64,000 nt of DNA from a virus: the IMG/VR virus record IMGVR_UViG_3300045988_116984, one strand, 5' to 3'. The notes beneath the pieces are model-generated. The model saw nothing but the letters and a program-made list of their open reading frames with translations. It had not been told where the DNA came from and searched no databases. Both the position numbers and the translations under genes were made by a program. Shown piece by piece: positions 8,552-57,224 of this stretch; position 1 is the stretch's first letter; the number at the start of each line of letters is the position of its first letter.

Positions 8552-8627
8552 GCTGGTGTAACTCAATTGGTAGAGTAGCTCATTTGTAATGAGCAGGTTT
8601 GGAGTTCGAGTCTCCACATCAGCTCCA
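8552..8627 (+). tRNA. tRNA-Thr (anticodon UGU), CCA encoded
   Basis: Hand-folded cloverleaf. Acceptor GCTGGTG/CATCAGC, D stem ACTC/GAGT, anticodon stem GCTCA/TGAGC with loop TTTGTAA, T stem TGGAG/CTCCA with loop TTCGAGT, and a 5-nt variable loop. Confidence 0.85.
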
Positions 8628-25811: not shown

Positions 25812-26858
25812 ATGGCTAGAAAGACATTTAAAAAGATTATTACAAGTGAGGAATTAATTTCTCAAATAAATCCAGAGAACAAAAAAATAGCCGATAGGTT
25901 CTTAAAAAACTTTGCTACAAAACGCTCAGAAACATCAGTTAAGGTGTATAAGTCCAATTTCAACATATTCTTTTGTTGGAATCTCCAATATAATGATAAT
26001 AAATTCTTCACAGATATTAGAAAGTCTGAAATGATGGATTTCTTTGACTATGGCTCGTCTGAATTACAGTGGAGTCCAAACAGATATGCTAATGTTTGGA
26101 GTTCTTTGAACAGTCTTAGTACGTTTATAGAGAATGTACTTGACGATGATTACCCTGATTTCAGAAATCAAGTGAGAAAAATAGAGAAGCAGCCAAAGGC
26201 TACTGTTAGAAAGAAAACAGTTCTTACCGATGTACAAGTCCACAATTTACTCAATCATCTTTCAGAGACAAACACACAGCAAGCCTGTTTATTAGCGCTT
26301 GCGTGCTATTCGGGTGCTAGGATTAGTGAATTGTTCCGTTTCACGACGGACTTGATTGATTTAAATAATTTAGCATATGAAGATTTGTTCCTTGAAACAA
26401 CTGATGAGATTAAGACAAAGGGTAGAGGACGACTCGGTAAGGTATTATATAAATACATATTAAAAGCGCCATTTGAGCCTTATTATGTTAAATGGATAGA
26501 AGAACGCGAAGCTATTATGAAAGAGCTTGGTGTGTCACATGATTATCTATTTATCAGAAAAGACGGACAACCAGCTACTCCAGACACGGCGCGCGTATGG
26601 ATAAAGCAATGGGAGAAGTATCTTACGGACGAAGAACCGAGTAATAAGCGTCACGACCCTGTTGATTTATACGCCCATGCTTTCAGGCATTATCTGTGTA
26701 CATATTTAGCTAAGATAGGGCTGGAACAAGAACTTGTTGTCGAAATCTTTGGTTGGAGTTCATTTGATATGTTTAATATCTATAATGATATGACGGCCAA
26801 AGATAAAAAGTGGAAGGGGCTTGAGAAGCTCAAAAAAGCCATTGAAAAACAAGGGTGA
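25812..26858 (+). CDS. tyrosine site-specific recombinase (integrase/Xer/invertase family)
   Basis: Catalytic pattern: GARISEL (Arg), KTKGRG (Lys), HAFRHY (His-x-x-Arg), GWSS, and NIYND (Tyr). There is an N-terminal SAM-like core-binding region. Confidence 0.85.
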   Translation: MARKTFKKIITSEELISQINPENKKIADRFLKNFATKRSETSVKVYKSNFNIFFCWNLQYNDNKFFTDIRKSEMMDFFDYGSSELQWSPNRYANVWSSLNSLSTFIENVLDDDYPDFRNQVRKIEKQPKATVRKKTVLTDVQVHNLLNHLSETNTQQACLLALACYSGARISELFRFTTDLIDLNNLAYEDLFLETTDEIKTKGRGRLGKVLYKYILKAPFEPYYVKWIEEREAIMKELGVSHDYLFIRKDGQPATPDTARVWIKQWEKYLTDEEPSNKRHDPVDLYAHAFRHYLCTYLAKIGLEQELVVEIFGWSSFDMFNIYNDMTAKDKKWKGLEKLKKAIEKQG

Positions 26859-33134: not shown

Positions 33135-33923
33135 ATGGCATTTTGGGCACGTTCATTTATATTTGATGATATCCCAAGTGAAACTTACGGCCTGTTTTTA
33201 ATTAGCGAGAGTGGAGCTGGCGTTCTAGAGAACGTCGGCTCCAATTCGGTAGAGCCGTATACACAGGAGATATACAGAAAACCAAAGCCGTATTTCTTCG
33301 GTGTTCAACAAACGCCAGTTCTCACATTTAGTTTGAGCTTCGCTAGTTTAAAACCAGTCGATGCTGTTCAACAGCAAATTATTCAAAGATGGTTGTTTGG
33401 ACACAATTCATATAAAAAGCTTCAAATAATGCAGTGCGACATGGAATCGGTATACTTTAATTGTATACTGAACAATCCAACAGTCACTACTGTTGGGAAC
33501 TATGCTTATACATTTAAGTGTGACGTGGTGTGTGATGCGCCATGGGCTTGGGAATACCCTAAAACAGAATCATTTGGGCCGTTTTTAGTTGAAGGAACGT
33601 TCGATTTTAATAATATTTCGGACGACAACTACTATATGTTCCCTATTTTTACTGTTAAAATGGGGAGCAATTCTAATTCGTTTGAACTGATAAATAAAAC
33701 CGATGGGAATAAAGGTTGTTCCTTTGTGGGGTTAAGTCCAAGCGAAACATTGACAATTGATTCTAATAAATATATAATCACATCAAGCACAGGATTATTG
33801 CGTGTTGGTAATATGACTGGCACTCTGCCAAGACTTGTGCCCGGTATGAATACATTTCAAGTTCTTGGTTCACCTGAAAGCATAACAATAAGTTATCAAA
33901 ACGCAAGGAAAGTAAGCGGATAA
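33135..33923 (+). CDS. distal tail protein (Dit-like)
   Basis: It lies immediately after the tape-measure gene. The N-terminus SFIFDDIPSETYGLFL is typical of siphovirus tail-component proteins. Confidence 0.55.
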   Translation: MAFWARSFIFDDIPSETYGLFLISESGAGVLENVGSNSVEPYTQEIYRKPKPYFFGVQQTPVLTFSLSFASLKPVDAVQQQIIQRWLFGHNSYKKLQIMQCDMESVYFNCILNNPTVTTVGNYAYTFKCDVVCDAPWAWEYPKTESFGPFLVEGTFDFNNISDDNYYMFPIFTVKMGSNSNSFELINKTDGNKGCSFVGLSPSETLTIDSNKYIITSSTGLLRVGNMTGTLPRLVPGMNTFQVLGSPESITISYQNARKVSG

Positions 33924-33941: not shown

Positions 33942-36605
33942 ATGTTACAAAAGTTTAATTATTTCGGAGAACATGAAGATTATGTAATCAGATTGTGTAA
34001 TCCGAATAAACAACAAATCTGTTTCTTAAATCAAGGATATCAACAGGAACTGTCTTTGAGATTTAATGAAATGTCAGAGTTCCACATCACTATTCCATAT
34101 ATGACAGATGGAGAAATATTCCCATATTATGACAGAATAAAGAGCAAAAAACTTATTTTGATTGATGATATTGGGTATTTTCTAATCACAACTGTTGATG
34201 AAACAGATGATGGTATTGTCAAACAAAAGACTGTAACAGCATATTCTTTAGAAACGGAACTTGCGTTTAAAAAAATAAACATATTTGATGGTACGTATAA
34301 GTTCTATGACCCTATTAACGCAGACAACACACTTATGGGCAAGATTCTGTCAACATCCAACTGGACAATTGGGCAGATAGACCCTGACTTATGGAATGTT
34401 TATAGGACTTTTGAGATACCGGATAGTACAGTATATGAATTTTTAATGAATGATGTCGAAACGTCTTATGAATGCGTATTTATGTTTGACTCTTTTGCTA
34501 GGACAGTTTCGGCATATACATTGAAAAACCTAGTAAAGAATACTGATATTATACTAAGTTACAATAATCTGATTCAAAATATTGACATTAATGAAAAATC
34601 AGATGAAATTGTTACGGCTTTAAGCGTATATGGCGGTAATAATCTTGGTATATCGGCTGTAAATCCATTGGGCACAAACACAATCTATGATTTTAGTTAT
34701 TTTGCCACAACAGAATGGATGGACCAAGCCTTAATCAATGCTATTAAAGCCTGGGAGGCCGCAATAGCAGCACAACAAACAAGATATTCTAACCTTTTAA
34801 CTCAATACAAAGATAAAAACACCGAGATAGTGACAGCCAATTCTACTTTAGTAGACTCAAAGACTGACAGAGACGCTATTGAGGGCGTTGTAAAGGTTAT
34901 GATAGAGGGAGATTTGAAGAATACTCCCGAATACACAGCCAAGGTTAATGAGCTTAATGCCGCCAATGCAGCCGTAACAGCACAAGAAAATCATATAAAT
35001 GATTTAAAAACACAGCTTGAAGTTATAAACTCTGATTTAAAAGCAATCAATGAATCTTTGGCTTTCTCTAAATTCTTCACGGAAGAACAGTACGAAGAAC
35101 TCAAAACCTATATGGTTGAGAATACATATCAAAATGAAAGTTTTACTATAACATCAGAAATGACGAATAGTGAAATCCAAGATATGGCACAATCTCTGTA
35201 TAATCAGGGCAAATATGTACTTGAAAGAGTATCACAGCCACGTTTTGAGTTCACAGTTGAAAGTGTAAACTTTTTATTCTTAAAGGACTTTGAAAAATTT
35301 AGTCAACAGTTGGAACTTGGATGTATTATTAACATAGAGAAAGACGAAGCTGTGTATGTCAAGCCAGTATTACTTGAATTGAATGTACAGCTTGATGACC
35401 CAACGAATTTTTCTCTTGTATTCGGCAATAGATATAAGCTTGATAATGGCGAATATACTTTCAGAGATTTGTTCGGTGATGCTATTAAGGCTGGTTCAAG
35501 CGTTAAATTTGACGGCGCTAAGTGGGGAGAATATGTCAATAGTGGAATGAATAACGCTGTTAGTGACTTTATTAACTCCGCCTTAGACACTTCAAAGAAT
35601 AATGTTATCAATGCCACAAATCAAGAGATATTGATAAATCAAAACGGATTGCGTGGACGTACCATGATGGATAATGGTACATACAATCCAAACCAAGTAT
35701 GGCTTACATCCAACACTCTTGCTTTTACGTCAGATAACTGGCAAACTGTACGACTTGCTCTTGGCGAAATAGATTTAAACGGACAAAAGATTTTTGGTGT
35801 TGCTGGTGATGCTTTGGTTGGTAAAATTATCGCTGGTAATCAGCTTATTATATCCAACGACAACAACAACTTTACATTGGACAGCAATGGTGCTGTACTG
35901 AACAATGCTAGTTTTTCTATTGTTTCTAATAACGGGTTAAGTCAAATACAACTAAACCCGACACAAGGCATTAGTATACAAACAAGGGCGAACACAAGCG
36001 CTGCTTGGGCTAATCAATTTTACGTTGATGCGCAAGGCAATCTTGTTATTAACGGCAAAATCACAGCTAATAGCGGTACAATTGGTGGATGGCAAATTGA
36101 TTCTACCAGATTATATAACTCTGCTAATGGTGACTACATTGGCTCAAATGGATATGGTAAACTTAGTTTGCTTTCGTGGACACCAACATCGGCTACATTT
36201 AACGGCAGAATTTACGCTTCAAATCTTGGTGACCAAATTAAAACGGGCAATATTCAAGATGGCGCTGTAACGTCGGCAAAGCTAGATACTCTATATGCTA
36301 CCAAGGCATTTGTTGATGAAATGAACGTTGAACTGGCTAACGTACATACGCTTGCGGCAAATGCGGCTACAATTCAACAGTTAAATGCCACAAATGCTAC
36401 AATTGCTAATCTTGACCTTACAAATTTGAAATTTCAAGGGCGTTCAGCGAGCTGGACTCAGACGCCAATCGTGTATGATTTGAATGTGACTAATACGCTT
36501 GTCATAACATCGGTTGATTTTAAGAATCAAACATATACATCAGCAAATATAACTGGTATTCGTAACTTCTATAAAACAAGCGGAATGTGGGTTATTAGTG
36601 GTTGA
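33942..36605 (+). CDS. tail-tip / tail-associated (Tal-like) minor structural protein whose last ~54 aa have an inverted silent alternative downstream
   Basis: 887 aa in the position after Dit. The central part is coiled coil and the C-terminal part is beta-rich, ending ...NLKFQGRSASW...SGMWVISG. Confidence 0.6.
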   Translation: MLQKFNYFGEHEDYVIRLCNPNKQQICFLNQGYQQELSLRFNEMSEFHITIPYMTDGEIFPYYDRIKSKKLILIDDIGYFLITTVDETDDGIVKQKTVTAYSLETELAFKKINIFDGTYKFYDPINADNTLMGKILSTSNWTIGQIDPDLWNVYRTFEIPDSTVYEFLMNDVETSYECVFMFDSFARTVSAYTLKNLVKNTDIILSYNNLIQNIDINEKSDEIVTALSVYGGNNLGISAVNPLGTNTIYDFSYFATTEWMDQALINAIKAWEAAIAAQQTRYSNLLTQYKDKNTEIVTANSTLVDSKTDRDAIEGVVKVMIEGDLKNTPEYTAKVNELNAANAAVTAQENHINDLKTQLEVINSDLKAINESLAFSKFFTEEQYEELKTYMVENTYQNESFTITSEMTNSEIQDMAQSLYNQGKYVLERVSQPRFEFTVESVNFLFLKDFEKFSQQLELGCIINIEKDEAVYVKPVLLELNVQLDDPTNFSLVFGNRYKLDNGEYTFRDLFGDAIKAGSSVKFDGAKWGEYVNSGMNNAVSDFINSALDTSKNNVINATNQEILINQNGLRGRTMMDNGTYNPNQVWLTSNTLAFTSDNWQTVRLALGEIDLNGQKIFGVAGDALVGKIIAGNQLIISNDNNNFTLDSNGAVLNNASFSIVSNNGLSQIQLNPTQGISIQTRANTSAAWANQFYVDAQGNLVINGKITANSGTIGGWQIDSTRLYNSANGDYIGSNGYGKLSLLSWTPTSATFNGRIYASNLGDQIKTGNIQDGAVTSAKLDTLYATKAFVDEMNVELANVHTLAANAATIQQLNATNATIANLDLTNLKFQGRSASWTQTPIVYDLNVTNTLVITSVDFKNQTYTSANITGIRNFYKTSGMWVISG
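36426..36439. repeat. left inverted repeat (candidate recombination site) inside the tail-tip gene
   Basis: TTGAAATTTCAAGG, codon-aligned as L-K-F-Q-G. Its partner lies at 36776-36790. Confidence 0.6.
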
Positions 36606-36627
36606 TATTAAATTAACCACTAATAAC
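36591..36627. repeat. 13-bp perfect inverted repeat formed by the two convergent cassette ends
   Basis: GTTATTAGTGGTT-(11 nt)-AACCACTAATAAC. Both arms encode V-I-S-G followed by a stop. Confidence 0.8.
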
Positions 36628-36786
36628 ATAACCAGAGCTACCATATGTAAGCCCAACTACTACTTTTTCTTCGGAATATGTTGGAGTTCCTCCAGAACTA
36701 ATACTTGAAACATATCTAATTGTGTGAGTTTGTATACCGGTTACAAACGTTGAGTATCTCCAACTAGCAGCTATACCTTGAAAATT
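36616..36786 (-). other. silent alternative C-terminal cassette for the tail-tip protein (no start codon, no RBS)
   Basis: Hand translation of the minus strand gives (TGA)NFQGIAASWRYSTFVTGIQTHTIRYVSSISSGGTPTYSEEKVVVGLTYGSSGYVISG(TAA). That is 57 codons, preceded by an in-frame stop, with no ATG/GTG/TTG plus RBS. Confidence 0.6.
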
Positions 36787-36790
36787 TCAA
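36776..36790. repeat. right inverted repeat (candidate recombination site)
   Basis: CCTTGAAAATTTCAA is the reverse complement TTGAAATTTTCAAGG. It matches the left repeat except for one extra T. Confidence 0.6.
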
Positions 36791-36824
36791 TTTTATTGAC
36801 TATATAAAAGGAGTAAACGGAAAA

Positions 36825-40838: not shown

Positions 40839-41462
40839 ATGTTAAGTTTCTCTGTCAAGAAGCAAAAACTCGAAAGAAAAGACAATCAAGAAGTGGTTGG
40901 AGGAACATATAATTACTTATATGCTGTATTTGACTTTTCATATGATTGGGACAACGTTTCTAAAAATGCAATATTCAATAACTGCAAAGCAAAGAAAAAC
41001 TTTGCCGTTCCTATTGTAGAAAATATATGTCTTGTGCCATGGGAGGTTATAGAAAGTCCAAACTTTACGGTATCGTTATATGGATTTACAGACAACAAGA
41101 GAATAACTTCTAATGAAGTTATGATACCAGTTAAAAGCAAACCATATAACGCCAATAACATTCCATCACCGCCTCCGACACCAACTGATTATGAAGCATA
41201 TGTACAACTTGTAAATAAATATAAAGAAGAATCGGACGCTCAATACAATGAGCTTAAAGAAACAAAAGCGGAAGTAACAACAACTGACAGCATTTATAAA
41301 TTCCCGAATATCGGGAACAAAAACTATCTATACATTGATTCTTCTACTAATACAACGTATAGATGGGATGAAACCGAATTAAAGTATTATTGTGTTGGTT
41401 CTGATTACAGAGAAATAGAGATTATCATAGGGGGGAAAGCAAGTGGCAAATACAACTCTTAA
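40839..41462 (+). CDS. hypothetical tail-fibre-module protein
   Basis: 207 aa. The C-terminal NYLYIDSSTNTTYRWDETELKYYCVG motif is seen in Firmicutes phage fibre proteins. Confidence 0.4.
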   Translation: MLSFSVKKQKLERKDNQEVVGGTYNYLYAVFDFSYDWDNVSKNAIFNNCKAKKNFAVPIVENICLVPWEVIESPNFTVSLYGFTDNKRITSNEVMIPVKSKPYNANNIPSPPPTPTDYEAYVQLVNKYKEESDAQYNELKETKAEVTTTDSIYKFPNIGNKNYLYIDSSTNTTYRWDETELKYYCVGSDYREIEIIIGGKASGKYNS

Positions 41463-42813
41463 TGTTAAAATACAAATAAGAAATGACGTTGCCAATACTT
41501 GGAAAACCACAAACCCTGTACTTCTAAAGGGTGAAATGGGTATTGAAACAGATACAAGGAAGTTCAAGTTCGGTGACGGCGTTTCAACTTGGACTGAACT
41601 TGACTATGCAAGTGCGCAAGCTGCGGTTGTAATGAACAAAGCGCCTACGCCAATGGACTCTGGATATGATATTGGTGTAATTTGGATTGATACAGCGGGC
41701 AACAAGGCGTATGTCTTGTTTAACAACACATCTAATAATGCTATTTGGAAACAGATGGTTACGCCTGATGACTTGAGCGACCTTGGCGCAGGAGACATGT
41801 TGAAATCTCAGTTTGCCAACAATCCAAAAGCAGAGCAAGGTTATGTAAACGCAGCTATTGTAGCCGACACAGCAAATGCTACTAAGGCGGCGCTTACTGC
41901 TGGTACAAAGACATTTAACGGCTCAACAGCGATTGAAATCACTGCTGGTGATTTGGGTGCTCTTACATCTGTTCCATCAGAGTACGTCAAAAACACAGAT
42001 TACGGTACTACCGAACAGGGCGGCGTTGTTAAGTCGGTTGCTAAGGGCACTGATACAGTTACCATTAACGCCGACGGAACAATGTCCATGGGAAAGGCTT
42101 CTACCGCCGGAGCGGCAGACACCGCCGCTGCTTTACAAACTGGTAGAACGATTGCTCTTAGTGGAGACGCAACTGGTACTTCTGCTGCTTTCGATGGTAC
42201 GGCGAATGTAACAATTCCTGTTGTATTAGCAAAGAGTGGTGTTACAGCTGGTACATTCACAAAGGTTACTGTGAATGATAAAGGGCTTGTAACAAGCGGG
42301 GAGGCTCTTGTAGCTTCTGACATTCCATCCCTTACTCTTTCGAAGATTACTGATGCTGGTACTGCTGCTGCGGCTGATACTGGTATCGCAGAGGGCAACG
42401 TCCCCATTCTTGGTGCTGGTGGCAAACTGAACGAAGCGGTTATCCCCGCCATTGCTATTACTGATACATATGTTGTTGACAGTCAAGCCGCAATGCTTGG
42501 GCTTGATGCTCAAAAAGGTGACGTTGCTGTTCGTACAGATATCAATAAAACATTCATCTTAAAACAGTCTCCCGCATCTACTTTGGGAAACTGGGTTGAG
42601 CTTGAAACACCGACAGATGCTGTAACGAGTGTAAATGGTTTAACTGGTGCTGTTGTTCTTACAACATCAAATATAGAAGAAGGAAGTAATCTTTATTTCA
42701 CGACTGCTAGAGCAAACGCGAACTGGATTACACATGCTTCTACGGAGCTTACAGACTCTGATACTCTGCTTAGGACAACTGACACATTTATACTTAATGG
42801 CGGAAATGCCTAA
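41443..42813 (+). CDS. tail fibre protein (conserved fibre N-terminal domain)
   Basis: GTG start. The N-terminus IRNDVANTWKTTNPVLLKGEMGIETDTRKFKFGDGVSTWTELDY is the common phage-fibre/hyaluronidase-type N-terminal domain. Confidence 0.6.
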   Translation: MANTTLNVKIQIRNDVANTWKTTNPVLLKGEMGIETDTRKFKFGDGVSTWTELDYASAQAAVVMNKAPTPMDSGYDIGVIWIDTAGNKAYVLFNNTSNNAIWKQMVTPDDLSDLGAGDMLKSQFANNPKAEQGYVNAAIVADTANATKAALTAGTKTFNGSTAIEITAGDLGALTSVPSEYVKNTDYGTTEQGGVVKSVAKGTDTVTINADGTMSMGKASTAGAADTAAALQTGRTIALSGDATGTSAAFDGTANVTIPVVLAKSGVTAGTFTKVTVNDKGLVTSGEALVASDIPSLTLSKITDAGTAAAADTGIAEGNVPILGAGGKLNEAVIPAIAITDTYVVDSQAAMLGLDAQKGDVAVRTDINKTFILKQSPASTLGNWVELETPTDAVTSVNGLTGAVVLTTSNIEEGSNLYFTTARANANWITHASTELTDSDTLLRTTDTFILNGGNA

Positions 42814-42841: not shown

Positions 42842-45223
42842 GTGGCTAATAGAAACCTAAACGCTCGACAGCAGCAAAAACATGATACTTCGTCCAATTT
42901 TAACTCTAAAAATGCCACATATTTAGAGGGCGAAATCCTTATTGAAAGTGACACCGGCAGAGTTAAGATAGCTGATGGAGATACAGATTATAAAACGCTC
43001 CAATATACTATTGGAACTCGTGTACCAACAGATGCCAAGTTTACAGATACCACTTATACTGCTAGTGGAGGGCTGTCCCTTAGCGGGACAACCTTTTCCA
43101 TTGCTAATTCTGGTGTAACAGCGGATACTTATGGGCCAACTGCTAATGTATCTGGCTCTTGGGGAACGTCGTTTACAGTACCAAGCGTTGTTGTAAATAC
43201 TAAAGGACAAGTTACGAGCGCGGTTGATAGAACTGTTACTATGCCTGCGAAACCAACCGCTGCTGATATTGGTGCCGAGCCAGCGTTTACAAAAAATACA
43301 GCGTTCAACAAAAATTTCGGAACTGCTTCTGGAACTGTTTGTGAGGGTGACGATGAGAGATTGTCGAATGCGCGTCCTGCTTCTGATGTTTCAGCATGGG
43401 CAAAAGCGGCTACAAAGCCAACCTATACCCCAACAGAAGTTGGCGTCATTGGTGCAGCTCCTGCTTCTGGGCAAGTAGCTGTTTTTGATGGTACAACTGG
43501 TAAGATTAAATCTACTGGGTTTACGATAGCAACATCGGTGCCTGCCAATGCCGAATTCACAGACACAACATATAACAAAGCAACAGATTCTTCTCTTGGA
43601 CTGGTGCAAGTTGGATATTCCACTTCTGGAAAAAACTACGCTGTTACTTTAGACGATTCTGGCAATGCTTATGTAAACGTCCCATGGACGGATTCTGTTG
43701 CTAATAACCCAGCCATAACAATTACACAAAACGGAACGTCTAAAGGCTCTTTCACGCTAAACCAGACTTCGGCAGAAACAATTGATTTGACTGATACAAC
43801 ATATTCTGTTTTTGAAGCCGCCACTTCAAGTGTAGCAGGTAGTACCGGATTAGTACCAGCTCCTGCGGCTGGCAAGCAGACGAGCTTCTTACGAGGAGAC
43901 GGGACATGGGTTATACCGTCTCAACCGACAGTGAATAATCCTACTATCACAATAAAACAGGACGGCGCGACCAAAGGGACATTTACTTTAAATCAATCTG
44001 GAGATGCCACAATAGAGCTTACTGACGCCAATACGACTTATGCTCAAGCGACATCAACAGTCCTTGGTTTGGTTAAGATTGGATACGCTGAAAATGGCCG
44101 AAACTATCCAATTAAGCTTGATTCTTTGGGGAAAATGTTTGTCAATGTACCATGGACAGACACAACATATTCCGTCGCCACTGTTAGCGAGGATGGATTG
44201 ATGCCTAAAATCCCAAGTTCGTCTGCTCAATATTTAAACGGCATGGGACAGTGGAGTACACCACCAGATACTAAATATACAAACTTTGTCGGTTCTGGCT
44301 CTGAAGCTAAGTCTGGACTTGTTCCGTCTCCGGGGACAATCGCTGGCACAACAAAATATCTAAGAGAAGATGGAACATGGAGTGTACCGCCAGATACTAC
44401 ATATACAGCAGGACGAGCAATTGAAATTAGTCAAGGCGCTATTAGCGTAACAAGCAGTGGTGTATCTTCTGGCGCATACGGTTTAACGGATAGTACCAGT
44501 GTTAATATTGGTACGTCATTTACTGTTCCGGGGTTTGTTGTTGACCAATGCGGTAGATTGACGCAGGCATACAGCAGGACTGTTACTGTTAATGCGCCAA
44601 ATATGACTGGTGCCACAACATCAGCAGCAGGAACGGCTGGCTTGGTTCCTACGCCTACTGCGGGGAAGCCAACAAGGTACCTTTGTTCAACCGGAGAATG
44701 GAGTATACCCACTGGAACTATTTATAATGGAAGCACAACAATATCCGTTAAACCGTCTACAACTGATGGAGAATACAATATATATTTAGTTGCGTTATTT
44801 CCGGGCACTACAAGCCAAAGCGTTGGACCAAGCGCATCAGGAACAATTAATTTTGGCTCTGCTTTTAATGTGCCATATATAACGATAGACCAATATGGCA
44901 GAATCACGGCATTAGCGAATAGAAGTATGATTCTTAGTGGAGCATTAGCAAGCAGCTCTGCTCCTGGTTTGTGTCCAAAGTTAGATTCGTCACATCCATC
45001 ATATTATCTAAATGCTAATGGAAGTTGGAGTCTCCCAAGAGGCAGAGTATATGGTGTAAAAGGAGAAGCCGAAACGGATTATCGTAAAGGACAAGTAAAC
45101 ATAACAGCAGATAATATTGGAGCATTATCTCTTTCTTCTGGCGGCACAGTTGCTGGTGCTACAACGTTTAGTAGTGATGTTACTATTAGCGGCGAACTAA
45201 ATTATGATGGTGGATTCTATTGA
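42842..45223 (+). CDS. long tail fibre protein with internal repeats
   Basis: GTG start after AAGGAGGGG. It has the same N-terminal domain type (EGEILIESDTGRVKIADGDTDYKTLQY) and repeated GLVP.P....K.LR.DGTW..P units. It also carries the AEPAFTKNTAFNKNFG...RLSNAR module. Confidence 0.65.
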   Translation: MANRNLNARQQQKHDTSSNFNSKNATYLEGEILIESDTGRVKIADGDTDYKTLQYTIGTRVPTDAKFTDTTYTASGGLSLSGTTFSIANSGVTADTYGPTANVSGSWGTSFTVPSVVVNTKGQVTSAVDRTVTMPAKPTAADIGAEPAFTKNTAFNKNFGTASGTVCEGDDERLSNARPASDVSAWAKAATKPTYTPTEVGVIGAAPASGQVAVFDGTTGKIKSTGFTIATSVPANAEFTDTTYNKATDSSLGLVQVGYSTSGKNYAVTLDDSGNAYVNVPWTDSVANNPAITITQNGTSKGSFTLNQTSAETIDLTDTTYSVFEAATSSVAGSTGLVPAPAAGKQTSFLRGDGTWVIPSQPTVNNPTITIKQDGATKGTFTLNQSGDATIELTDANTTYAQATSTVLGLVKIGYAENGRNYPIKLDSLGKMFVNVPWTDTTYSVATVSEDGLMPKIPSSSAQYLNGMGQWSTPPDTKYTNFVGSGSEAKSGLVPSPGTIAGTTKYLREDGTWSVPPDTTYTAGRAIEISQGAISVTSSGVSSGAYGLTDSTSVNIGTSFTVPGFVVDQCGRLTQAYSRTVTVNAPNMTGATTSAAGTAGLVPTPTAGKPTRYLCSTGEWSIPTGTIYNGSTTISVKPSTTDGEYNIYLVALFPGTTSQSVGPSASGTINFGSAFNVPYITIDQYGRITALANRSMILSGALASSSAPGLCPKLDSSHPSYYLNANGSWSLPRGRVYGVKGEAETDYRKGQVNITADNIGALSLSSGGTVAGATTFSSDVTISGELNYDGGFY

Positions 45224-50144: not shown

Positions 50145-50622
50145 TATATGATTTCCTAAATAAATGTGTTAAATCTTCAAATTCTTTATTTTTTATATGA
50201 TAGAATTTTTGATTTGTTTTCCCCGAATCGAGTCCACCATACTCTTTAATATAAGGGCCAATCTTCAAATAATCAATAATATTGTCGTTAATTAAATCTG
50301 CGAAAGAAGTTATGCTTTGTAGTCCACTATAAATACATGTTTTTAGATTCGGATATTTTTCTTTGATTGACTTTATAAATAGATAAAGTTCTTCTATATT
50401 TTGGTCGCCGCCCATAAAACAAACACATGTAATAAATGTATTATATCTATCAATTATTTTTAAATAATCCTCTTTTACATATTTACCAACATAATCCCAT
50501 AGATATTTAGAGTGGCAACCCTCACATTTGTGAGGGCAACCACTAATATTGAACACAAGAGTTGTTTCGTTCGGTACTTCTTGGAACACTATATCATAAG
50601 AACAATATTTTAGATTAAGCAT
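50137..50622 (-). CDS. nrdG: anaerobic ribonucleotide reductase activating protein (radical SAM)
   Basis: CPHKCEGC radical-SAM CxxxCxxC cluster near the N-terminus. The ATG at 50622 overlaps the nrdD stop (ATGCTTAA). Confidence 0.8.
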   Translation of the reverse strand: MLNLKYCSYDIVFQEVPNETTLVFNISGCPHKCEGCHSKYLWDYVGKYVKEDYLKIIDRYNTFITCVCFMGGDQNIEELYLFIKSIKEKYPNLKTCIYSGLQSITSFADLINDNIIDYLKIGPYIKEYGGLDSGKTNQKFYHIKNKEFEDLTHLFRKSYNA

Positions 50623-51061
50623 AATATCTATCACGTTCTTCTTTTTGACGCGCCTCAGAGAAGTTTGATACACGTTTCAAATACCCAATTACTCTAGTGG
50701 CATAATCAAGATTTTCGCTTCCGCATTTTGGACATTTATTTAAACGATGTTTACTAATATGGCCACATTCGTTACAGATTGTATTTGGAACATTGAATGT
50801 AAAATACGAACATCCTGTTGACATTGCGGTATCGAGCAAATGTTTATACTGTTCTTTTGTAAGGTGTTCGTTCAGATTGGCATGAAGGGCGCTACCACCA
50901 TCAAGATATTTTGTTAGCTTTTCTCCATGTAATATAAACTTATCAATAAGATTTACACTATCATCTTCCACACGATAGAAATAACTATTATAACACTCTC
51001 TTGGTACATATAGCCCATCTTTTTTATCCCAGCCTGAATTTTTAACGCCTAGATTTTCCGC
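50615..51061 (-). CDS. nrdD: anaerobic (class III) ribonucleotide reductase, exon 2
   Basis: It begins AENLGVKN, completing the conserved ..vPAE.lgvk block. It has the Zn-ribbon CNECGH...CPKCG and the glycyl-radical motif TRVIGYL. Confidence 0.8.
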   Translation of the reverse strand, partial: AENLGVKNSGWDKKDGLYVPRECYNSYFYRVEDDSVNLIDKFILHGEKLTKYLDGGSALHANLNEHLTKEQYKHLLDTAMSTGCSYFTFNVPNTICNECGHISKHRLNKCPKCGSENLDYATRVIGYLKRVSNFSEARQKEERDRYYA

Positions 51062-51952
51062 CATTCTGTTGCTTTTATGACCTACATCAATTCTTTTTCA
51101 GCATTAGTACGTGCTTCTAATGCTAACTCATAAGTTTCAAACGTACCTAAGTAGTGCGTTTTATAATTTTTTGTGATTGTGACTTGATATTTACCAGAAG
51201 GAACTCTTTTTATCCCTTTTCTATCAATTGATTGGTTCCTAATGTTATCAGAATGTTCTATTACCCTAAGATTATTTTTACGGTTATCCATTCCGTTTCT
51301 ATTTATATGGTCTATATCTTTGTCACCATAATAATTAAGAATAAATCTATGTAAGAACGTTTGTTTTCCATTTATATTAGTCATAGCATAATTTGTATTT
51401 TTGCTTCTTTTTATGTGCCATTTACGCTCTAAGCAACGTTGTAAATCATCTGTGTCTATTATAGCTCTGCCAATCTCTTTACAATTCTTATCATTAATTA
51501 TAATTTCTGAATAATCATCAAATATAATATAATCGTTTTTATCATAAATGGTTTTATCTAAGAAGCCGCCATGTCTATATAATTGTGTTATATGGCGAGT
51601 ACATAAGTTCATGCCCCTAATCGTTCTTATGCGTTTCTTATCGCTTGTTATTCCACATACGTCACACTCTATAATTTATACTCCTTTCTATATTTTAATA
51701 GCACGTTTTATGATGTAGGCGGTGATGGTTCTTCCAAGAGTGTCTTTACACTCGACCATCACTCACTATGTTACCATAGTGTTCAGACTATCGCACCAGC
51801 ACCTAAGTGCTGCTTCTTCATTTAGTCGTTCACGCTGCCATTACGCTTGCGCCCTGTTATCCAACTGTAAAGACAATTGGAACTCCAAGTCAATTAGAAG
51901 AAGTTTTTATATGACAGTTTATGTATTATGCTGCCAAGTGCCCACTCATTTT
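51062..51952 (-). mobile_element. group I intron in nrdD carrying an HNH homing-endonuclease ORF
   Basis: It splits the conserved FVP|AENLG block. Exon 1 ends in U (..GTGCCT) and the intron ends in G (..CAGAATG). The intron contains GCGATAGTCTGAAC, a J8/7-P7-like core, and many hairpins. Confidence 0.7.
51082..51612 (-). CDS. HNH homing endonuclease with AP2-like DNA-binding domain (intron-encoded)
   Basis: HRFILNYYGDKDIDHINRNGMDNRKNNLRVIEHSDN is the HNH motif. The C-terminal KRVPSGKYQVTITKNYKTHYLGTFETYELALEAR is AP2-like. Confidence 0.8.
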   Translation of the reverse strand: MNLCTRHITQLYRHGGFLDKTIYDKNDYIIFDDYSEIIINDKNCKEIGRAIIDTDDLQRCLERKWHIKRSKNTNYAMTNINGKQTFLHRFILNYYGDKDIDHINRNGMDNRKNNLRVIEHSDNIRNQSIDRKGIKRVPSGKYQVTITKNYKTHYLGTFETYELALEARTNAEKELM

Positions 51953-53356
51953 AGGCACAAATTCGGTATTAAACATTATTTCGGATGTTCTGTCTCTTTT
52001 GTTTATAGTATAAATAGGTTTAAGAATAGCTTCTCCATATTTGAAATATTCTTCATTTACAGTAGGTTGAATCCCTAAAAATTCTGCTCCCTCTACAAAT
52101 CCATTAATTCCAATAGTAAGATACTGTTTTTCCATCGAAATATATCCGGCATCATATACTGGAAGCATATGGTTTTTGAGGTTGTCTTTTACAATTTCGT
52201 TATACGAAATCATATATTTATGAATTTTTTCTACCTGTTCAGCTACTCTTTCACTAATATCTTCAAGCGTAATTTTGCCTTTTTCTTTTGCTAAATTTTG
52301 AATAAGTCTATTGAGGTTGATGGTCATAACGCCTTTACTGCCTGTACTTATTCCACCAGCACCAAGCGTGTATGAAAACGTGTTCTCTGTCACTTCGTTC
52401 TTTAAACGACAGCACGATGCTAATGCGTCAACACTATTACTCGTATAGCAGAAAAATGAATGTCCTTCGCTCCACATTTCGGCCGTGAAATCATACCATT
52501 CTTTATCTACATATTCTGTGCCATTATTGAGCAGATTGACAGTTTCAACTGGGAATGTAAGAATTTTCTTCAATCGCTCAGCGTTAAACCATTTCATAAA
52601 CTTCTTTTGAAGCCAATTTACGCTTTCCCAGATTGGAGAAGAACCATCAGGGAATACAAACTCACTAAACATCCCATCGAAGTATGGTTTATCAAAATAA
52701 GCTATATTCCAGAATACTGACTGAAAGTTTCTGGCACCAGCAGGGTCGTTTATTGTATAGACAACTTGTTGAAATTTGTTTTCAATAAGATTTTCTAGAG
52801 ACTTTGGCTCTTTACCAAGAATAACATTATCAGAAACATGTTTATAGTAGTCGTCACCAAAATCCTTCCTGATAAAGTAATCCATATACATAAGGAACTC
52901 TGGTGTGGCAACTGCTCCAGCGAATTGTGAAGCAACAGCGTATACAAGATTAACGAAACTTCCGCAGAATGAATCAAGATGTTTCGGAGCTTCTGAATTT
53001 CCTCCGATATTTGTTGTGCCACTGAACAAGAATGGATACATTGTTATGCTTACACAATAAGGCAACATGGGATTCGTTTCGTCATGCCTATAAATCTCGT
53101 GCGAATCTAGTTGACGAATGTATTCTTCAGCCAGTTCTTCTCCATAAAGCTCCGTAATCTTATTAATCATAAGAAGCCGGTTTGTGCCAATTGCTTCTTT
53201 TTTATACATTTCGCCGGTACAAGTCGTTACGTTTTTATGCTCTACATTAGCATTGGAATCAACTTCGCTTCCGCTTGAAGCATTTACTGCTTTACGATAT
53301 CTGTCGATGAAATTAAGGTATTTTGTGTATTGATTCTTATACTTCTCTATTCCCAT
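51953..53356 (-). CDS. nrdD: anaerobic (class III) ribonucleotide reductase, exon 1
   Basis: 468 codons ending ...EIMFNTEFVP. The in-frame read-through (KMSGHLAA then stop) is intron sequence. Confidence 0.8.
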
Positions 53357-53579: not shown

Positions 53580-54029
53580 TTAGTTTGTTTCATCGGAATA
53601 TACAACAACGCCGTTTACAGTATATGTGCTTGTTTTTTCTACGCACAAATTATACATAACTTCCACTACATTTTCCGAAACACTTACGCTAACTATATTA
53701 CTATAACTAGACAAATCATCTTCTTTTCTATTAGCCAGCAATATATGATGGTTAAACGTTATATTTCTTGCTTCAACCCATCCAGCCTCGAATGTAAAGA
53801 ATTTGTGCTCCGGAGCACAAATAATTGGTTCATCAATTCCGTTTACTGTAAAAACAAGGATATGTCCACTGTATATATGGCTAACGACATTATTTACTCG
53901 ATTGTATGTTAAGTCGTGCGACAAAACCATGTCACCGACTTTTATATCTTCAATGTTATGTATTCCACGGTTTGTAATAACTTTATGCCCAGCCATGAAA
54001 CAGTCGGAACTACAACTGCTCAATAACAT
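53580..54029 (-). CDS. free-standing degenerate Hint (intein-like) domain protein
   Basis: MLLSSCSSD is followed by CFMAGHKVITNRG..IEDIKVGDMVLSHD (block A/N2-like), ICAPEHKF (block B-like) and VMYNLCVEKTSTYTVNGVVVYS (block F/G-like). The terminal His-Asn is replaced by Tyr-Ser, and no C-extein follows. Confidence 0.6.
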   Translation of the reverse strand: MLLSSCSSDCFMAGHKVITNRGIHNIEDIKVGDMVLSHDLTYNRVNNVVSHIYSGHILVFTVNGIDEPIICAPEHKFFTFEAGWVEARNITFNHHILLANRKEDDLSSYSNIVSVSVSENVVEVMYNLCVEKTSTYTVNGVVVYSDETN

Positions 54030-54037
54030 TACCACCT

Positions 54038-54896: not shown

Positions 54897-54925
54897 ATTA
54901 TACCACAAAATTGTTTATTTGTCAA
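54897..54925 (-). promoter_or_regulatory. leftward sigma-A-type promoter PL1
   Basis: On the minus strand: TTGACA, a 17-nt spacer ending TGTGG (extended -10 TGn), then TATAAT. Confidence 0.75.
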
Positions 54926-55021
54926 TACCATAATTGTGAAAGATTTGTAAACAAATTGTGAACAACTATACATATTTTTCATATTCTCAGCCTTGAAGAA
55001 GTAATTTATTGCTATGTTTGT

Positions 55022-55050
55022 ATTATAACATATCTTGCTGTAAAAGTCAA
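55022..55050 (-). promoter_or_regulatory. leftward sigma-A-type promoter PL2
   Basis: On the minus strand: TTGACT, 17 nt, then TATAAT (ttgacttttacagcaagatatgttataat). Confidence 0.7.
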
Positions 55051-55092
55051 TACCTTAATTGTAAATAAATTATTAACAAATTACTGCAATAT

Positions 55093-55668
55093 TATTATAA
55101 GCTTATAGATTTATACGCTTGTATTACAAGCTAGTCTATAATATAGGCTTATATACTAGCTTATATTTCTATACGCTTATCTACACGTTTATAAAACTAT
55201 ACGCTTGTAATATAATATATATTATATAAACAAAAAAACTAAATATTATATTAAAACGGTAGTTACTACTTTGAGCGTATAGAAAAGCTTATAGTATGAC
55301 AAGCTTATATACAAGCTTATAGATTTATACGCTTATAATACTAACTTATAAATCTATAAGCGTATATTACTAGCTTGTAGTATTATAAGCTAGTAATATA
55401 TATTATTATATATAAATATATAATTATAAGCTTATATTATATACTAGTTTGTAATATAAGCTTATAATACTACAAGCTAGTTACATGATTGTCATACTAT
55501 AAGCTTTTCTATACGCTCAAAGTAGTAACATCTTTTTAAATATTATATTATTTTTTTGTTTATATAATATATATTATACTACAAGCTTGTAGTATTATTA
55601 GCTTATATATAAGCTTATATTATAGACTAGCTTATAATACAAGCGTATAAATCTATAAGCTTATATTA
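55093..55668. repeat. ~600-bp imperfect composite palindrome built from AGCT-core dyad boxes (candidate origin / centromere-like / regulator array)
   Basis: Outer arms 55093-55155 and 55604-55668 match as inverted repeats apart from 2-3 mismatches. The 40-nt arms 55263-55302 and 55489-55528 are identical inverted repeats, as are the 22-nt arms 55368-55389 and 55461-55482. The region holds 10 AAGCTT cores plus about 9 one-off variants and has no ORF. Confidence 0.85.
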
Positions 55669-55739
55669 CAAGCATATAGCATTACAGGCTTGTAACTGTA
55701 TTACAGTAGTTTGTTCACAAATTATTTACAATTGAGGTA

Positions 55740-55768
55740 TTGACTTCTTCTCGGCAATGTGGTATAAT
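55740..55768 (+). promoter_or_regulatory. rightward sigma-A-type promoter PR1
   Basis: TTGACT, a 17-nt spacer ending TGTGG, then TATAAT. Confidence 0.75.
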
Positions 55769-55888
55769 AGCATCGTTGATTGAGTTTGTGATTGTGATTA
55801 TTGTGATTGTTAGTGCGTTTTGTGTAATTTTAGTGTATTTTTTATATGTGGTGCTTGTTTTGTTCATAAATTGTTTACAATTAGGGTA

Positions 55889-55917
55889 TTGACAAATTGA
55901 TTGAAGTGTGGTATAAT
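55889..55917 (+). promoter_or_regulatory. rightward sigma-A-type promoter PR2
   Basis: TTGACA, a 17-nt spacer ending TGTGG, then TATAAT. It lies about 50 nt upstream of the 55967 ORF. Confidence 0.8.
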
Positions 55918-56466: not shown

Positions 56467-56820
56467 ATGGCAGTTGGATTTAGCTTTCAAAAAGCAAAAC
56501 GAGAGAAAATTTGGGTAAAACTTCTGCTTAATGGCCCGTCAGGTAGCGGCAAAACGTATACAGCATTGCGTCTAGCTACTGGTATGTTGAGCAAGGTTGG
56601 CGGAGCTGGTATTGCCGCTATTGACACGGAGAATGGACGTATTCGTTATTATGCGAATGAATTTGACTTCTTCGACTTACAGCTTGGCGAACCATATACG
56701 TCTGAATCGTATATCGAAGCAATCAATGCGGCAGTTGACAATGGATTTAAAGTGCTTATCATTGATAGTTTGAGCCATGAATGGAAATGGTTGAATGAAG
56801 TACATGATAAGATGCCCGGT
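56467..56820 (+). CDS. Sak4-like / AAA_24-type RecA-fold ATPase, exon 1
   Basis: Walker A NGPSGSGKTY and Walker B LIIDSLSHEW. The ORF-track product ends in the intron-derived residues CNVA then stop. Confidence 0.7.
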
Positions 56821-57224
56821 TGTAATGTGGCGTAAACACATTCACGGCCCGCTATATTGGTAACAATATGGTGTTTCCTCACGAATATGCTGGAACGCCC
56901 TTAGAGTTCACATGCTAAAGAGGAATCTTGAGATAGATAAACTTAAATGCTATAAAAAGTTGTGAAATTGGGAAATCAGCAGGGAATGGATATAACAGTC
57001 CTGCCCTCAACGACTATGGTGTTGGAACCAGTAGAATTAAGCGATTCAAAATGTGAGGACTCCTTATGAGTAAAAACAATTTAACTTCTATGACAAAAGA
57101 CGAAGTTCAAGAAGTTATTATCTCATTAGGATGAAGATATAGTCTGCACTTACGCGAAAGCGTGAGAAAAGCATATAAACTATGCTCTTTATAGAAATAG
57201 CGAATCTATAAAGTAACACAATGG
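56821..57224 (+). mobile_element. ORF-less group I intron
   Basis: It separates two halves of one ATPase gene. It contains GATGAAGATATAGTCTGCAC (the AAGATATAGTC J8/7-P7 consensus), a GAAA-capped hairpin CTTACGC-GAAA-GCGTGAG, and several further hairpins. The proposed 5' splice site follows U56820, which pairs as GGUUG/CGGCC with G-U. The intron ends in G57224. The boundaries are inferred. Confidence 0.65.

What the first reader, a model, noticed from the sequence alone, without database searches (positions are those of the whole stretch)
36426..36790. Start-less inverted copy of the tail-tip C-terminus bounded by in-phase inverted repeats: a candidate minimal invertible host-range switch
Seen in the sequence:
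- The 887-aa tail-tip gene ends ...NLKFQG-RSASWTQTPIVYDLNVTNTLVITSVDFKNQTYTSANITGIRNFYKTSGMWVISG-stop.
- 11 nt downstream, the opposite strand (36786 down to 36616) reads stop-NFQG-IAASWRYSTFVTGIQTHTIRYVSSISSGGTPTYSEEKVVVGLTYGSSGYVISG-stop.
- This cassette has no start codon and no RBS, and an in-frame TGA lies directly upstream. It is almost the same length as the expressed C-terminus (53 versus 54 aa after FQG). It shares the FQG..ASW entry and the VISG-stop exit.
- The junctions carry inverted repeats: TTGAAATTTCAAGG (36426-36439) and its complement with one extra T (36776-36790). In both copies the F-Q-G codons are in the same phase.
- Inverting the ~350-bp segment would therefore splice the alternative C-terminus in frame.

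Established knowledge: this is the logic of the Mu G and P1 C segments and of the R64 shufflon.

Inference: the phage toggles its receptor-binding tip. The CTTGAAAA arm resembles, from memory, the half-sites of Hin/Gin-type serine invertases. No serine invertase is in the window, and the only recombinase present is the tyrosine enzyme at 25812-26858.
Basis: partly seen in the sequence, partly recalled or inferred. Interest (0 to 1): 0.85.

Follow-up and report, generated by a model that had tools for sequence, protein, structure and literature searches.

The report
Invertible tail-tip switch in gut phage
A 365-bp DNA segment at the end of this common human-gut phage's tail-tip gene holds two alternative end-domains back to back, and related phage genomes show it flipped exactly at its short inverted repeats, so the phage can swap its tail tip; this kind of switch is already known from other phages.

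Summary
The tail-tip gene (33942-36605) ends in a 54-aa cassette. A start-less 53-aa cassette lies inverted just downstream. Both are entered through in-phase F-Q-G codons inside inverted repeats (core TTGAAATTTCAAGG).

Thirty-five independent copies of this module all have two intact cassettes. Five cassette pairs occur in both orientations. One relative (L096) carries the window's own two cassettes, amino-acid identical, with breakpoints exactly at the repeats. Two contigs 99.98% identical over 57 kb differ by the flip. Seven contigs end exactly on the repeat. The repeat is invariant even where it is never translated, while neighbouring synonymous sites vary. Cassettes are under purifying selection (pN/pS 0.05-0.22).

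So this is a real invertible switch of a whole C-terminal beta-domain.

The enzyme is not established. No serine invertase was found in about 112 kb of the roughly 116-kb genome. The only site-specific recombinase is a Xer-like tyrosine enzyme 10 kb upstream. That enzyme also persists in a relative with no cassette module.

The window's right repeat carries an extra T that may lock this allele.

This is a new variant of a known kind (Mu G, P1 C, Rin shufflon).

The parts
33942..36605 (+). Tail-tip gene (887 aa; follows Dit; YomG-family, Tal-like). The constant part runs to the FQG codons at 36432-36439.
   Evidence: ORF. PHROG 6211 minor tail protein, E = 2e-93. YOMG_N hit. Dit lies at 33135-33923.
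36420..36439 (+). Left inverted repeat (IR-L), ACAAATTTGAAATTTCAAGG. The perfect shared core is 36426-36439. It encodes T-N-L-K-F-Q-G.
   Evidence: Invariant in 20 unique contexts, including all synonymous third positions, while upstream codons vary. The L096 flank alignment ends at 36439.
36440..36605 (+). Cassette A, the currently expressed C-terminal domain (RSASW...MWVISG, 54 aa plus stop).
   Evidence: The same cassette sits in the silent position in L096 and in 12 relatives of the B/A arrangement. pN/pS = 0.08. The AF2 model places a compact beta-domain here, pLDDT 83-95.
36591..36627 (.). Central 16-bp hairpin formed by the two VISG-stop ends. It is symmetric, so it is present in either orientation.
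   Evidence: 94% complementary. (-23.1 kcal/mol, z = -4.8). No U tract follows, so it is not a canonical terminator.
36613..36775 (-). Cassette B, silent and start-less alternative C-terminal domain (IAASWRYSTF...GYVISG, 53 aa plus stop).
   Evidence: Expressed in L096 with identical sequence and in P0001/L001/L002/L008 and others as close variants. pN/pS = 0.13.
36776..36796 (-). Right inverted repeat (IR-R). On the minus strand it reads ATAAAATTGAAATTTTCAAGG, with one extra T relative to all other relatives except L059.
   Evidence: Consensus ATAAAATTGAAATTTCAAGG is invariant in 19 unique contexts, although its outer 12 nt are never translated. The L096 right-flank alignment starts at 36776.
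25812..26858 (+). Xer-like tyrosine recombinase (348 aa). It is the only site-specific recombinase found and is a candidate, but unproven, invertase.
   Evidence: PF00589, E = 1e-18, plus an N-terminal SAM-like domain. The candidate catalytic residues R, K, HxxR, W and Y can be read in the printed sequence, by eye rather than by alignment. Conserved at 86-98% in all relatives that reach that far. It is also kept in L175, which lacks the module.

Best explanation
Window 36420-36796 is a programmed invertible DNA segment.

Two 20-nt inverted repeats (perfect core TTGAAATTTCAAGG) flank two alternative cassettes arranged tail to tail. Each cassette encodes one complete 53-54-aa C-terminal beta-domain of the tail-tip protein. 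Recombination inside the core flips the segment. The constant 834-aa part ends in a long helical stalk and the codons F-Q-G. After a flip, that part is joined in frame to the other cassette. The downstream gene and its ribosome-binding site stay untouched.

Shown:
- the anatomy;
- that inversion has happened repeatedly and recently in natural populations, exactly at these repeats;
- that both cassettes are kept functional;
- that the repeat is constrained at the DNA level.

Inferred:
- The domain is the receptor-contacting tip, so the flip changes host or receptor specificity (bet-hedging).
- The reaction is site-specific.
- The catalyst is most likely the phage's own Xer-like tyrosine recombinase (25812-26858) acting from 10 kb away. 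I put that enzyme assignment at about 50%.

The window's own allele has a 1-nt insertion in the right repeat. If strand exchange needs identity across that position, or occurs 5' of it, this copy is locked on cassette A. A flip would then give the truncated product ...LKFSRYSC-stop.
For: 1. Thirty-five unique modules (34 contigs plus the window) all have both repeats about 350 bp apart and two intact cassettes. The 70 cassettes contain no stop or frameshift.
2. The same cassette pair is found in both orientations for five pairs: A/B 6 versus 12, B/C 6 versus 1, D/E 1 versus 2, E/G 2 versus 1. The inter-stop spacer is the exact reverse complement.
3. L096 carries the window's cassettes flipped. 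The segment is 99.2% identical in reverse, and the flanks (96.5% and 98.1%) end at 36439 and 36776.
4. IMG/VR contigs 117014 and 135762 differ by 8 mismatches in 57,150 compared bases, yet carry opposite orientations. Flips with 100% identical 600-nt left flanks are also seen.
5. Seven contigs end on the last base of the repeat. In assembly OIYU01, contigs of 47,082 and 68,845 bp end at IR-L and IR-R respectively and sum to about the whole genome.
6. The repeat is invariant, including its untranslated part, amid synonymous variation.
7. Cassette pN/pS is 0.05-0.22, and nucleotide-identical cassettes are seen in both expressed and silent positions.
8. The AF2 model shows helix 31-81, then a beta-domain at 83-140, so FQG sits at the domain junction.
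9. For the enzyme: it is the only recombinase found in the window plus about 50 kb of flanking genome from relatives. No integrated copies were seen: 409 blocks carry a window protein, none on a contig over 200 kb, and there was no GTDB hit.
10. Precedents exist: Rin (PMC6109161) and PsrA acting on three different repeat pairs (PMC7096588).
Against: - No reads were available, so both orientations were not demonstrated within one clonal lysate.
- IMG dataset 3300045988 holds many strains and may be pooled.
- Receptor binding is unproven. Foldseek found no significant match for the domain.
- Against the enzyme assignment, the recombinase is 10 kb away, not adjacent.
- Orthologues sit at the same place (the yomM position) in SPbeta-like phages generally. 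One is L175 (78% identical), whose tail-tip gene has a fixed end and no cassette.
- Recombinases 99-100% identical occur with two module types whose repeats look unrelated.
- About 4 kb of the genome was not seen, and the genome survey is a composite of strains.
- The window allele's extra T may make this particular copy inactive.
Confidence: 0.8

Rival explanations
1. The switch is real, but another enzyme in trans catalyses it. This could be a host-encoded invertase or a phage protein not recognisable as a recombinase. The YomM-position tyrosine recombinase would then have a different job, such as resolving genome dimers of an episomal form, as Cre does.
For: The recombinase is not adjacent to the segment. 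It is conserved in L175, which has no module, and across distant SPbeta-like phages and a Paenibacillus prophage. The same enzyme accompanies two unrelated repeat sets. A bifidophage inversion with no adjacent recombinase has been proposed to use a trans invertase (PMC6109161).
Against: No other recombinase was found in about 112 of about 116 kb. A host enzyme would have to recognise phage-specific repeats that are invariant across many strains. PsrA shows that one tyrosine enzyme can serve dissimilar repeats (PMC7096588).
Confidence: 0.3
2. In this window the element is a locked, or broken, copy. The 1-nt insertion in IR-R prevents productive inversion, so this strain permanently expresses cassette A and carries B as a silent spare.
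For: The extra T is present in the window and in the 99.4%-identical L059. Both are in the A-expressing orientation. All other copies, including the flipped L096, have perfect repeats. From established knowledge, tyrosine recombinases need identical overlap regions. A crossover 5' of the T run would give ...LKFSRYSC-stop, as read.
Against: The crossover point within the 14-nt core is unknown. If exchange occurs in CAAGG, the insertion is harmless to the reading frame. There are only two observations. Cassette B in the window is still intact and nucleotide-identical to the expressed copy in L096.
Confidence: 0.35
3. No dedicated site-specific system exists. The repeats are identical only because both cassettes must begin with the same peptide. 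Rare inversions arise by homology-driven or replication template-switch recombination.
For: The core overlaps conserved codons (L-K-F-Q-G). The second module type in relatives uses a 46-nt repeat, long enough for homologous exchange.
Against: The outer 12 nt of IR-R are never translated in either orientation, yet they are invariant. All synonymous positions of IR-L are frozen while adjacent codons vary. A repeat of 14-20 nt is very short for homologous recombination (established knowledge). Flips occur between genomes 99.98% identical, which implies a high rate.
Confidence: 0.07
4. The element is an evolutionary fossil or a chance feature. It would be a decayed duplicate of the C-terminus plus a terminator hairpin, with no present-day inversion.
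For: Within the window alone the repeat is only 14 nt with an indel. The VISG-stop similarity follows automatically from a 16-bp hairpin.
Against: All 70 cassettes are intact, and pN/pS is 0.05-0.22. Both orientations are frequent and recent. Assemblies break at the repeats.
Confidence: 0.03

Closest known systems
Rin shufflon and the second, simpler inversion of Bifidobacterium prophages (Mavrich et al. 2018, PMC6109161)
   Same: The C-terminus of a phage tail or receptor-binding protein is swapped by inversion at very short repeats (11-bp rix; 8 bp in the simple ~500-bp system). The recombinase is a predicted tyrosine enzyme of Xer-like build with no arm-binding domain. The simple system has two dissimilar segments and no adjacent recombinase. 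Both are found in the human gut.
   Different: The repeat sequences differ. Rin's recombinase is adjacent to the cassettes, which are several and tandem. Here there are exactly two tail-to-tail single-domain cassettes, and the candidate enzyme is 10 kb upstream inside the tail module. The phage here is a ~116-kb SPbeta-like phage with no sign of integration, not an actinobacterial prophage. No sequence comparison with Rin was possible.
Mu G segment/Gin, P1 C segment/Cin, e14 Pin, p15B Min (serine-invertase tail-fibre switches)
   Same: The logic is identical. A constant N-terminal tail-fibre part lies outside the segment. Alternative C-terminal parts face each other inside it. Inverted repeats sit at the constant/variable junction, and the variants differ in host range.
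   Different: Those use a small serine recombinase encoded next to the segment, 26-bp hix/gix-type sites and a Fis enhancer, and each variant brings its own chaperone gene within a 3-4 kb segment. Here the segment is 365 bp with no accessory genes, no serine recombinase was found, and the site is a 14-20 nt near-palindrome.
BV01-like Phocaeicola phage tail-fibre shufflon (PMC13596623) and the R64 Rci/pilV shufflon
   Same: A tyrosine-type or recombinase-flanked multi-inversion system changes the C-terminus of an adhesin or tail fibre. The directional motifs are short (10 bp plus extensions; the sfx 7-bp core plus arm). All configurations are detected in populations.
   Different: Those have three or more cassettes and an adjacent recombinase. 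The window's module has two cassettes. The three-cassette nested module seen in relatives L006, L014, L015 and L019 is the closer analogue.
PsrA / hsdS (cod locus) inversions of Streptococcus pneumoniae (PMC7096588)
   Same: One tyrosine recombinase drives in-frame, gene-altering inversions at several inverted-repeat pairs of different sequence and length. This matches the situation implied here, where 99-100% identical recombinases accompany two module types.
   Different: The target there is a restriction-modification specificity subunit in a bacterial chromosome, and the enzyme is adjacent. No family membership was found here: the NCBIfam invertase models are not matched above cut-off.

Membership tests
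Gene-altering programmed inversion (generic; Milman et al. 2023, PMC9881135) | Inverted repeats, one inside a coding sequence, that keep the reading frame after inversion | tested here: met
   The FQG codons are in the same phase in both repeats. In-frame chimeras are actually encoded in relatives.
Gene-altering programmed inversion (generic; Milman et al. 2023, PMC9881135) | Both orientations occur among closely related genomes or within populations | tested here: met
   Five cassette pairs occur in both orientations. L096 versus the window. Contigs 99.98% identical are flipped. Contigs break at the repeats. Read-level proof within one sample was not available.
Hin/Gin/Cin/Pin/Min serine-invertase tail-fibre switches | A small serine recombinase (resolvase domain plus HTH) encoded next to the segment | tested here: not met
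   No PF00239-type hit among about 55 window ORFs or among ORFs of the flanking genome in relatives. About 4 kb of the genome was not seen.
Hin/Gin/Cin/Pin/Min serine-invertase tail-fibre switches | 26-bp hix/gix-type crossover sites (two 12-bp half-sites around a 2-bp core) and a Fis-bound enhancer | tested here: inconclusive
   The shared sequence is 14 nt perfect, or 20 nt with 2 mismatches. The 'CTTGAAAA' resemblance depends on the window-specific extra base. The comparison with hix rests on memory. The enhancer is not testable.
Hin/Gin/Cin/Pin/Min serine-invertase tail-fibre switches | A constant N-terminal tail-fibre part, alternative C-terminal parts facing each other, and variant-specific chaperone genes inside the segment | tested here: not met
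   The constant and variable layout is met. There is no room for any further gene: the segment is 365 bp and the two stops are 7 nt apart.
Rin-type tyrosine-invertase shufflon of phages | A tyrosine recombinase of Xer-like build (core-binding plus catalytic domain, no arm-binding domain) | tested here: met
   PF00589 at residues 137-328 plus SAM-like at 37-115, in a 348-aa protein. The best NCBIfam hits are XerA, XerC and XerD, far below their cut-offs. The candidate catalytic residues can be read in the sequence.
Rin-type tyrosine-invertase shufflon of phages | The recombinase gene flanks the cassettes; several tandem cassettes are each preceded by the 11-bp rix TTCCCTAACCC | tested here: not met
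   The recombinase ends 9.6 kb upstream of IR-L. There are two cassettes and the repeat is different. Sequence relatedness to Rin itself was not tested, because no Rin sequence was at hand.
Rin-type tyrosine-invertase shufflon of phages | The recombinase co-occurs with the invertible module | tested here: not met
   L175 keeps a 78%-identical recombinase but has a fixed tail-tip end and no cassette. Orthologues are present in distant SPbeta-like phages.
Diversity-generating retroelement (considered because two Mtd_N proteins are nearby) | A reverse transcriptase plus template and variable repeats in direct orientation that differ at adenines | tested here: not met
   No reverse-transcriptase family was found in the ORFs scanned. 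The cassettes are inverted, about 20% identical, and differ throughout.

The most novel reading that the evidence does not exclude
The tyrosine recombinase at the yomM position is conserved across SPbeta-like phages and, as far as I know, has no assigned function. It may be a trans-acting DNA invertase serving dissimilar repeat sets: the 14-20 nt FQG repeat here, and the 46-nt and 19-nt repeats of the three-cassette module in sister strains. It would operate in a phage that does not integrate. Tail-tip variants would then be generated during lytic or episomal replication, as bet-hedging, rather than in a resident prophage as in Mu or P1.
Probability: 0.35. Interest if true: 0.7.

Novelty: new variant of a known kind. 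Interest (0 to 1): 0.55.

Why it matters
The phage is common in human-gut metagenomes. One of its proteins is recorded in 409 blocks of the assembly collection.

The switch swaps one small, self-contained domain at the very end of the tail tip. At least seven cassette types circulate among strains, always as one 53-aa B/E-class cassette paired with one 54-aa cassette.

This gives a compact, experimentally tractable system for three purposes:
- linking tail-tip domains to receptors in uncultured gut phage-host pairs;
- measuring phase variation of phages directly from metagenomic reads;
- finding what the conserved SPbeta-type tyrosine recombinase does.

It also has a practical consequence. Assemblies of this phage break at this locus or fix one orientation arbitrarily, so host-range predictions made from a single contig can be wrong.

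Tried and rejected
- **Annotated phage records (INPHARED, blastn distant):** no match.
- **GTDB genomes with the tail protein:** no relative found, so no prophage context.
- **Closing the genome walk:** about 4 kb between L170 and L104 stayed unseen, and one walk query found nothing.
- **Shared motif between module types:** I compared the repeats of the two module types by eye and found none convincing.
- **Co-occurrence of recombinase and module:** this failed as support. L175 has the enzyme without the module, and L172 shows no obvious cassette.
- **Curated invertase families:** NCBIfam gave only a 15.7-bit partial hit to a Fim-type model whose cut-off is 221. PDB sequence search gave only weak Xer/Int hits.
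- **Fold of the cassette domain:** AF2 gave a confident small beta-domain, but Foldseek against PDB and BFVD found nothing significant.
- **Tail protein against PDB sequences:** nothing.
- **Terminator reading of the central hairpin:** no U tract, and it is not called by the scan.
- **DGR reading:** rejected, because there is no reverse transcriptase and the geometry is wrong.
- **Apparent ORF-free stretch at 61062-64000:** this is just the PolIII-alpha gene running off the window.
- **Literature search for yomM:** unproductive.
Full report
**1. The observation**

The 887-aa ORF 33942-36605 follows a Dit gene (33135-33923) and a 1688-aa tape-measure gene. It matches a PHROG of minor tail proteins (E = 2e-93) and the YOMG_N domain. 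It ends ...NLKFQG-RSASW...MWVISG-stop.

Seven bases after its stop, the minus strand carries an open frame. It reads stop-N-F-Q-G-IAASWRYSTF...GYVISG-stop, has no start codon, and has a TGA two codons before the F.

TTGAAATTTCAAGG lies at 36426-36439. Its complement with one extra base lies at 36776-36790. The F-Q-G codons are in the same phase in both.

The two VISG-stop ends form a 16-bp hairpin. It folds at -23.1 kcal/mol with z = -4.8, and no U tract follows it.

Within the window alone, a 14-nt repeat with an indel would be only suggestive.

**2. What relatives show**

I searched the protein collection with a hypothetical flipped C-terminus. This returned P0001, a real protein whose end is the window's silent cassette type joined to the constant part. 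Every related locus fetched has the same layout: a constant part, the repeat, an expressed cassette, an inverted start-less cassette, then the repeat and the downstream gene.

Scans of IMG/VR and of metagenome contigs were made with the tail protein and with the 20-nt repeat. Together with the window they gave 35 unique complete modules.

- All 70 cassettes are intact, with 53 or 54 aa after FQG.
- There are seven cassette types, A to G.
- Every module pairs one 53-aa B/E-class cassette with one 54-aa cassette.

Five cassette pairs occur in both orientations:

| Pair (first cassette named / second) | First expressed | Second expressed |
|---|---|---|
| A / B | 6 | 12 |
| B / C | 6 | 1 |
| D / E | 1 | 2 |
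| E / G | 2 | 1 |

(The A/B row combines two sub-pairs, A1/B1 and A2/B2.) In each case the spacer between the stops is the exact reverse complement.

**3. The flip is precise and recent**

L096 (OGZY01001836.1, human gut) has the window's flanks and the window's two cassettes, amino-acid identical, but expresses B. The alignments run to 36439 on the left (96.5%) and from 36776 on the right (98.1%). The piece between them is 99.2% identical in reverse.

L070 is a 97-98% relative with different cassettes. It loses homology between 36448 and 36759, so cassettes are also exchanged as units.

IMG/VR contigs 117014 and 135762 come from the same dataset. They differ at 8 of 57,150 compared bases, yet they carry the B/C segment in opposite orientations. 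Contig 135762 begins 35 nt before the left repeat.

Other flipped pairs have 100% identical 600-nt left flanks.

Seven contigs end exactly on the last base of the repeat. In assembly OIYU01, a 47,082-bp contig ends at the left repeat and a 68,845-bp contig starts at the right repeat. Together they make about one genome without the segment. Assembly QWCN01 shows a similar pair. This is what an assembler produces when both orientations are present. I could not inspect reads, so it is strong circumstantial evidence, not direct proof.

**4. Selection**

Cassette variants differ mostly at synonymous sites (pN/pS 0.05-0.22). Nucleotide-identical cassettes are found in both expressed and silent positions.

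In 20 unique left-repeat contexts, nearly every third codon position upstream varies, but ACAAATTTGAAATTTCAAGG is frozen. In 19 right-repeat contexts, ATAAAATTGAAATTTCAAGG is frozen, although its outer 12 nt are never translated in either orientation.

So the repeat is constrained as DNA, as expected for a recombination site. The polymorphic outer positions stay with the flanks after a flip, so exchange happens inside the 14-nt core. The core contains a perfect 12-bp palindrome, TTGAAATTTCAA.

**5. What is swapped**

An AlphaFold2 model of the last 140 residues has mean pLDDT 78. It shows a long helix up to about residue 81, then a compact beta-domain at residues 83-140 with pLDDT 83-95. FQG (residues 84-86) sits at the junction. 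Each cassette is therefore one whole terminal domain on a constant stalk.

Foldseek found no significant match in PDB or BFVD. [quoted passage not shown]

**6. The enzyme**

The window's only site-specific recombinase is a 348-aa Xer-like tyrosine enzyme at 25812-26858. It has a core-binding domain and a catalytic domain. Residues matching the R, K, HxxR, W and Y catalytic set can be read in the printed sequence. It has no arm-binding domain. It is conserved at 86-98% at the same place in all relatives that reach that far.

The phage genome is about 116 kb, judged from contigs of 115-118 kb. It bears SPbeta-type marks: a YonO-like RNA polymerase, YonG_N and YOMG_N. It shows no sign of integration. 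None of the 409 blocks holding one of its proteins has a contig over 200 kb, and there was no GTDB hit.

I walked through relatives' DNA on both sides of the window, about 50 kb in all, leaving about 4 kb unseen. I found no other recombinase, only a TnpB in some strains.

These points favour the tyrosine enzyme, but three findings weaken the assignment.

- It is 10 kb away from the segment.
- Orthologues occupy the same position, between YomN and the tape-measure gene, in distant SPbeta-like phages and in a Paenibacillus prophage. One is L175 (78% identical), whose tail-tip gene has a fixed end followed after 18 nt by the next gene.
- Recombinases 99-100% identical accompany a second module type whose repeats look unrelated.

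PsrA of S. pneumoniae is a precedent for one tyrosine recombinase using dissimilar repeat pairs (PMC7096588). I put the assignment at about one half.

The 'CTTGAAAA' string depends on the window-specific extra base, and no serine recombinase was found.

**7. The window's own allele**

The extra T in the right repeat is shared with L059, a 99.4%-identical independent assembly. It is absent from all other copies, including the flipped L096.

Two scenarios would make this allele non-productive. Exchange might occur 5' of the T run, in which case a flip would yield ...LKFSRYSC-stop. Or the enzyme might need identical cores, in which case the copy is locked on cassette A. If exchange occurs in CAAGG, the insertion is harmless. 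This cannot be decided from sequence.

**8. Comparison with what is known**

The logic is that of Mu G and P1 C. The membership features of that family are not met: there is no adjacent serine invertase, no 26-bp sites, and no chaperone genes inside the segment.

The nearest described systems are in Bifidobacterium prophages (PMC6109161). One is the tyrosine-type Rin shufflon. The other is a ~500-bp inversion with an 8-bp site and no adjacent recombinase. A further relative is the BV01-like tail-fibre shufflon (PMC13596623). Systematic surveys list tail fibres among the targets of programmed inversions (PMC9881135).

What is different here:
- the minimal tail-to-tail, single-domain, two-cassette design of 365 bp;
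- a candidate enzyme that is remote and conserved independently of the module;
- an apparently non-integrating, very common gut phage;
- two interchangeable module architectures at the same locus.

I file it as a new variant of a known kind, of moderate interest.

Noticed in passing
L014:12437-13170; L006:3861-4586; L015:8158-8883; L019:1758-2490: Close relatives carry a different, larger module at the same place. It has three C-terminal cassettes: X ends ...NLWTW, Y ends ...TITYLGR and Z ends ...TIRYLGR. It has nested inverted repeats, a 46-nt outer pair and a 19-nt inner pair. X is expressed in L014, Y in L015 and L006, and Z in L019. L014 and L015 are 97-99% identical but rearranged. L006 is 97-99% identical to the window in the flanks. 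This is a shufflon-like sister of the window's switch, accompanied by the same recombinase.
   Followed up: partly
window 36776-36796; L059:2139-2159: A one-base insertion turns TTT into TTTT in the right repeat. It is shared by the window and an independent 99.4%-identical assembly and is absent from all other copies. It may lock the switch or cause a frameshift on flipping.
   Followed up: partly
35 type-I modules: Every module pairs one 53-aa cassette of the related B/E class (motif FVxG..T...RYVS..S.G.P..SE) with one 54-aa cassette of another class (A, C, D, F or G). Two cassettes of the same class are never paired. The invertible segment is often more conserved than its flanks, for example 100% against 95%. 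That pattern suggests the segments are exchanged as units between strains.
   Followed up: no
window 56812-57166: A group I intron (Rfam RF00028, 59.5 bits, full-length model) lies in the replication-gene region.
   Followed up: no
window 50615-53356 (minus strand), 53580-54035: The anaerobic ribonucleotide reductase NrdD is split. The N-part is 51926-53356 and the C-part is 50615-51064, with an HNH-endonuclease ORF (51082-51612) between them. In relative L106 the gene is one 984-aa ORF with an intein. A separate Hint/intein-like ORF lies at 53580-54035.
   Followed up: no
window 54900-55900: A dense cluster of long inverted and palindromic repeats, built on units such as TATAAGCTTATA, lies in an intergenic zone between divergent gene blocks. 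It may be a replication origin or a regulatory region.
   Followed up: no
window 1032-3806: A 924-aa protein matches the RdRP family PF05183. This is the YonO-type single-subunit RNA polymerase seen in SPbeta-like phages. Together with YonG_N, YOMG_N and the Yom-type tail gene order, it places this gut phage among SPbeta-like phages.
   Followed up: partly
window 41443-42813 and 42842-45223; 44478-44492 / 44742-44756: Two further tail-fibre-like proteins carry the Mtd_N domain, but no reverse transcriptase was seen. The second gene contains a perfect 15-nt inverted repeat pair 249 nt apart, which could be chance.
   Followed up: no
L002:2455-3615; L150:14909-16078: TnpB (IS605 OrfB / Cas12f-like) genes are inserted at different places in some strains of this phage.
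   Followed up: no
L001:1332-4009: In this relative the tail-tip gene is called as two overlapping ORFs of 746 and 146 aa. This is either a frameshift or an assembly error just upstream of the switch.
   Followed up: no
window 8552-8627: A single tRNA-Thr (anticodon TGT) is present.
   Followed up: no
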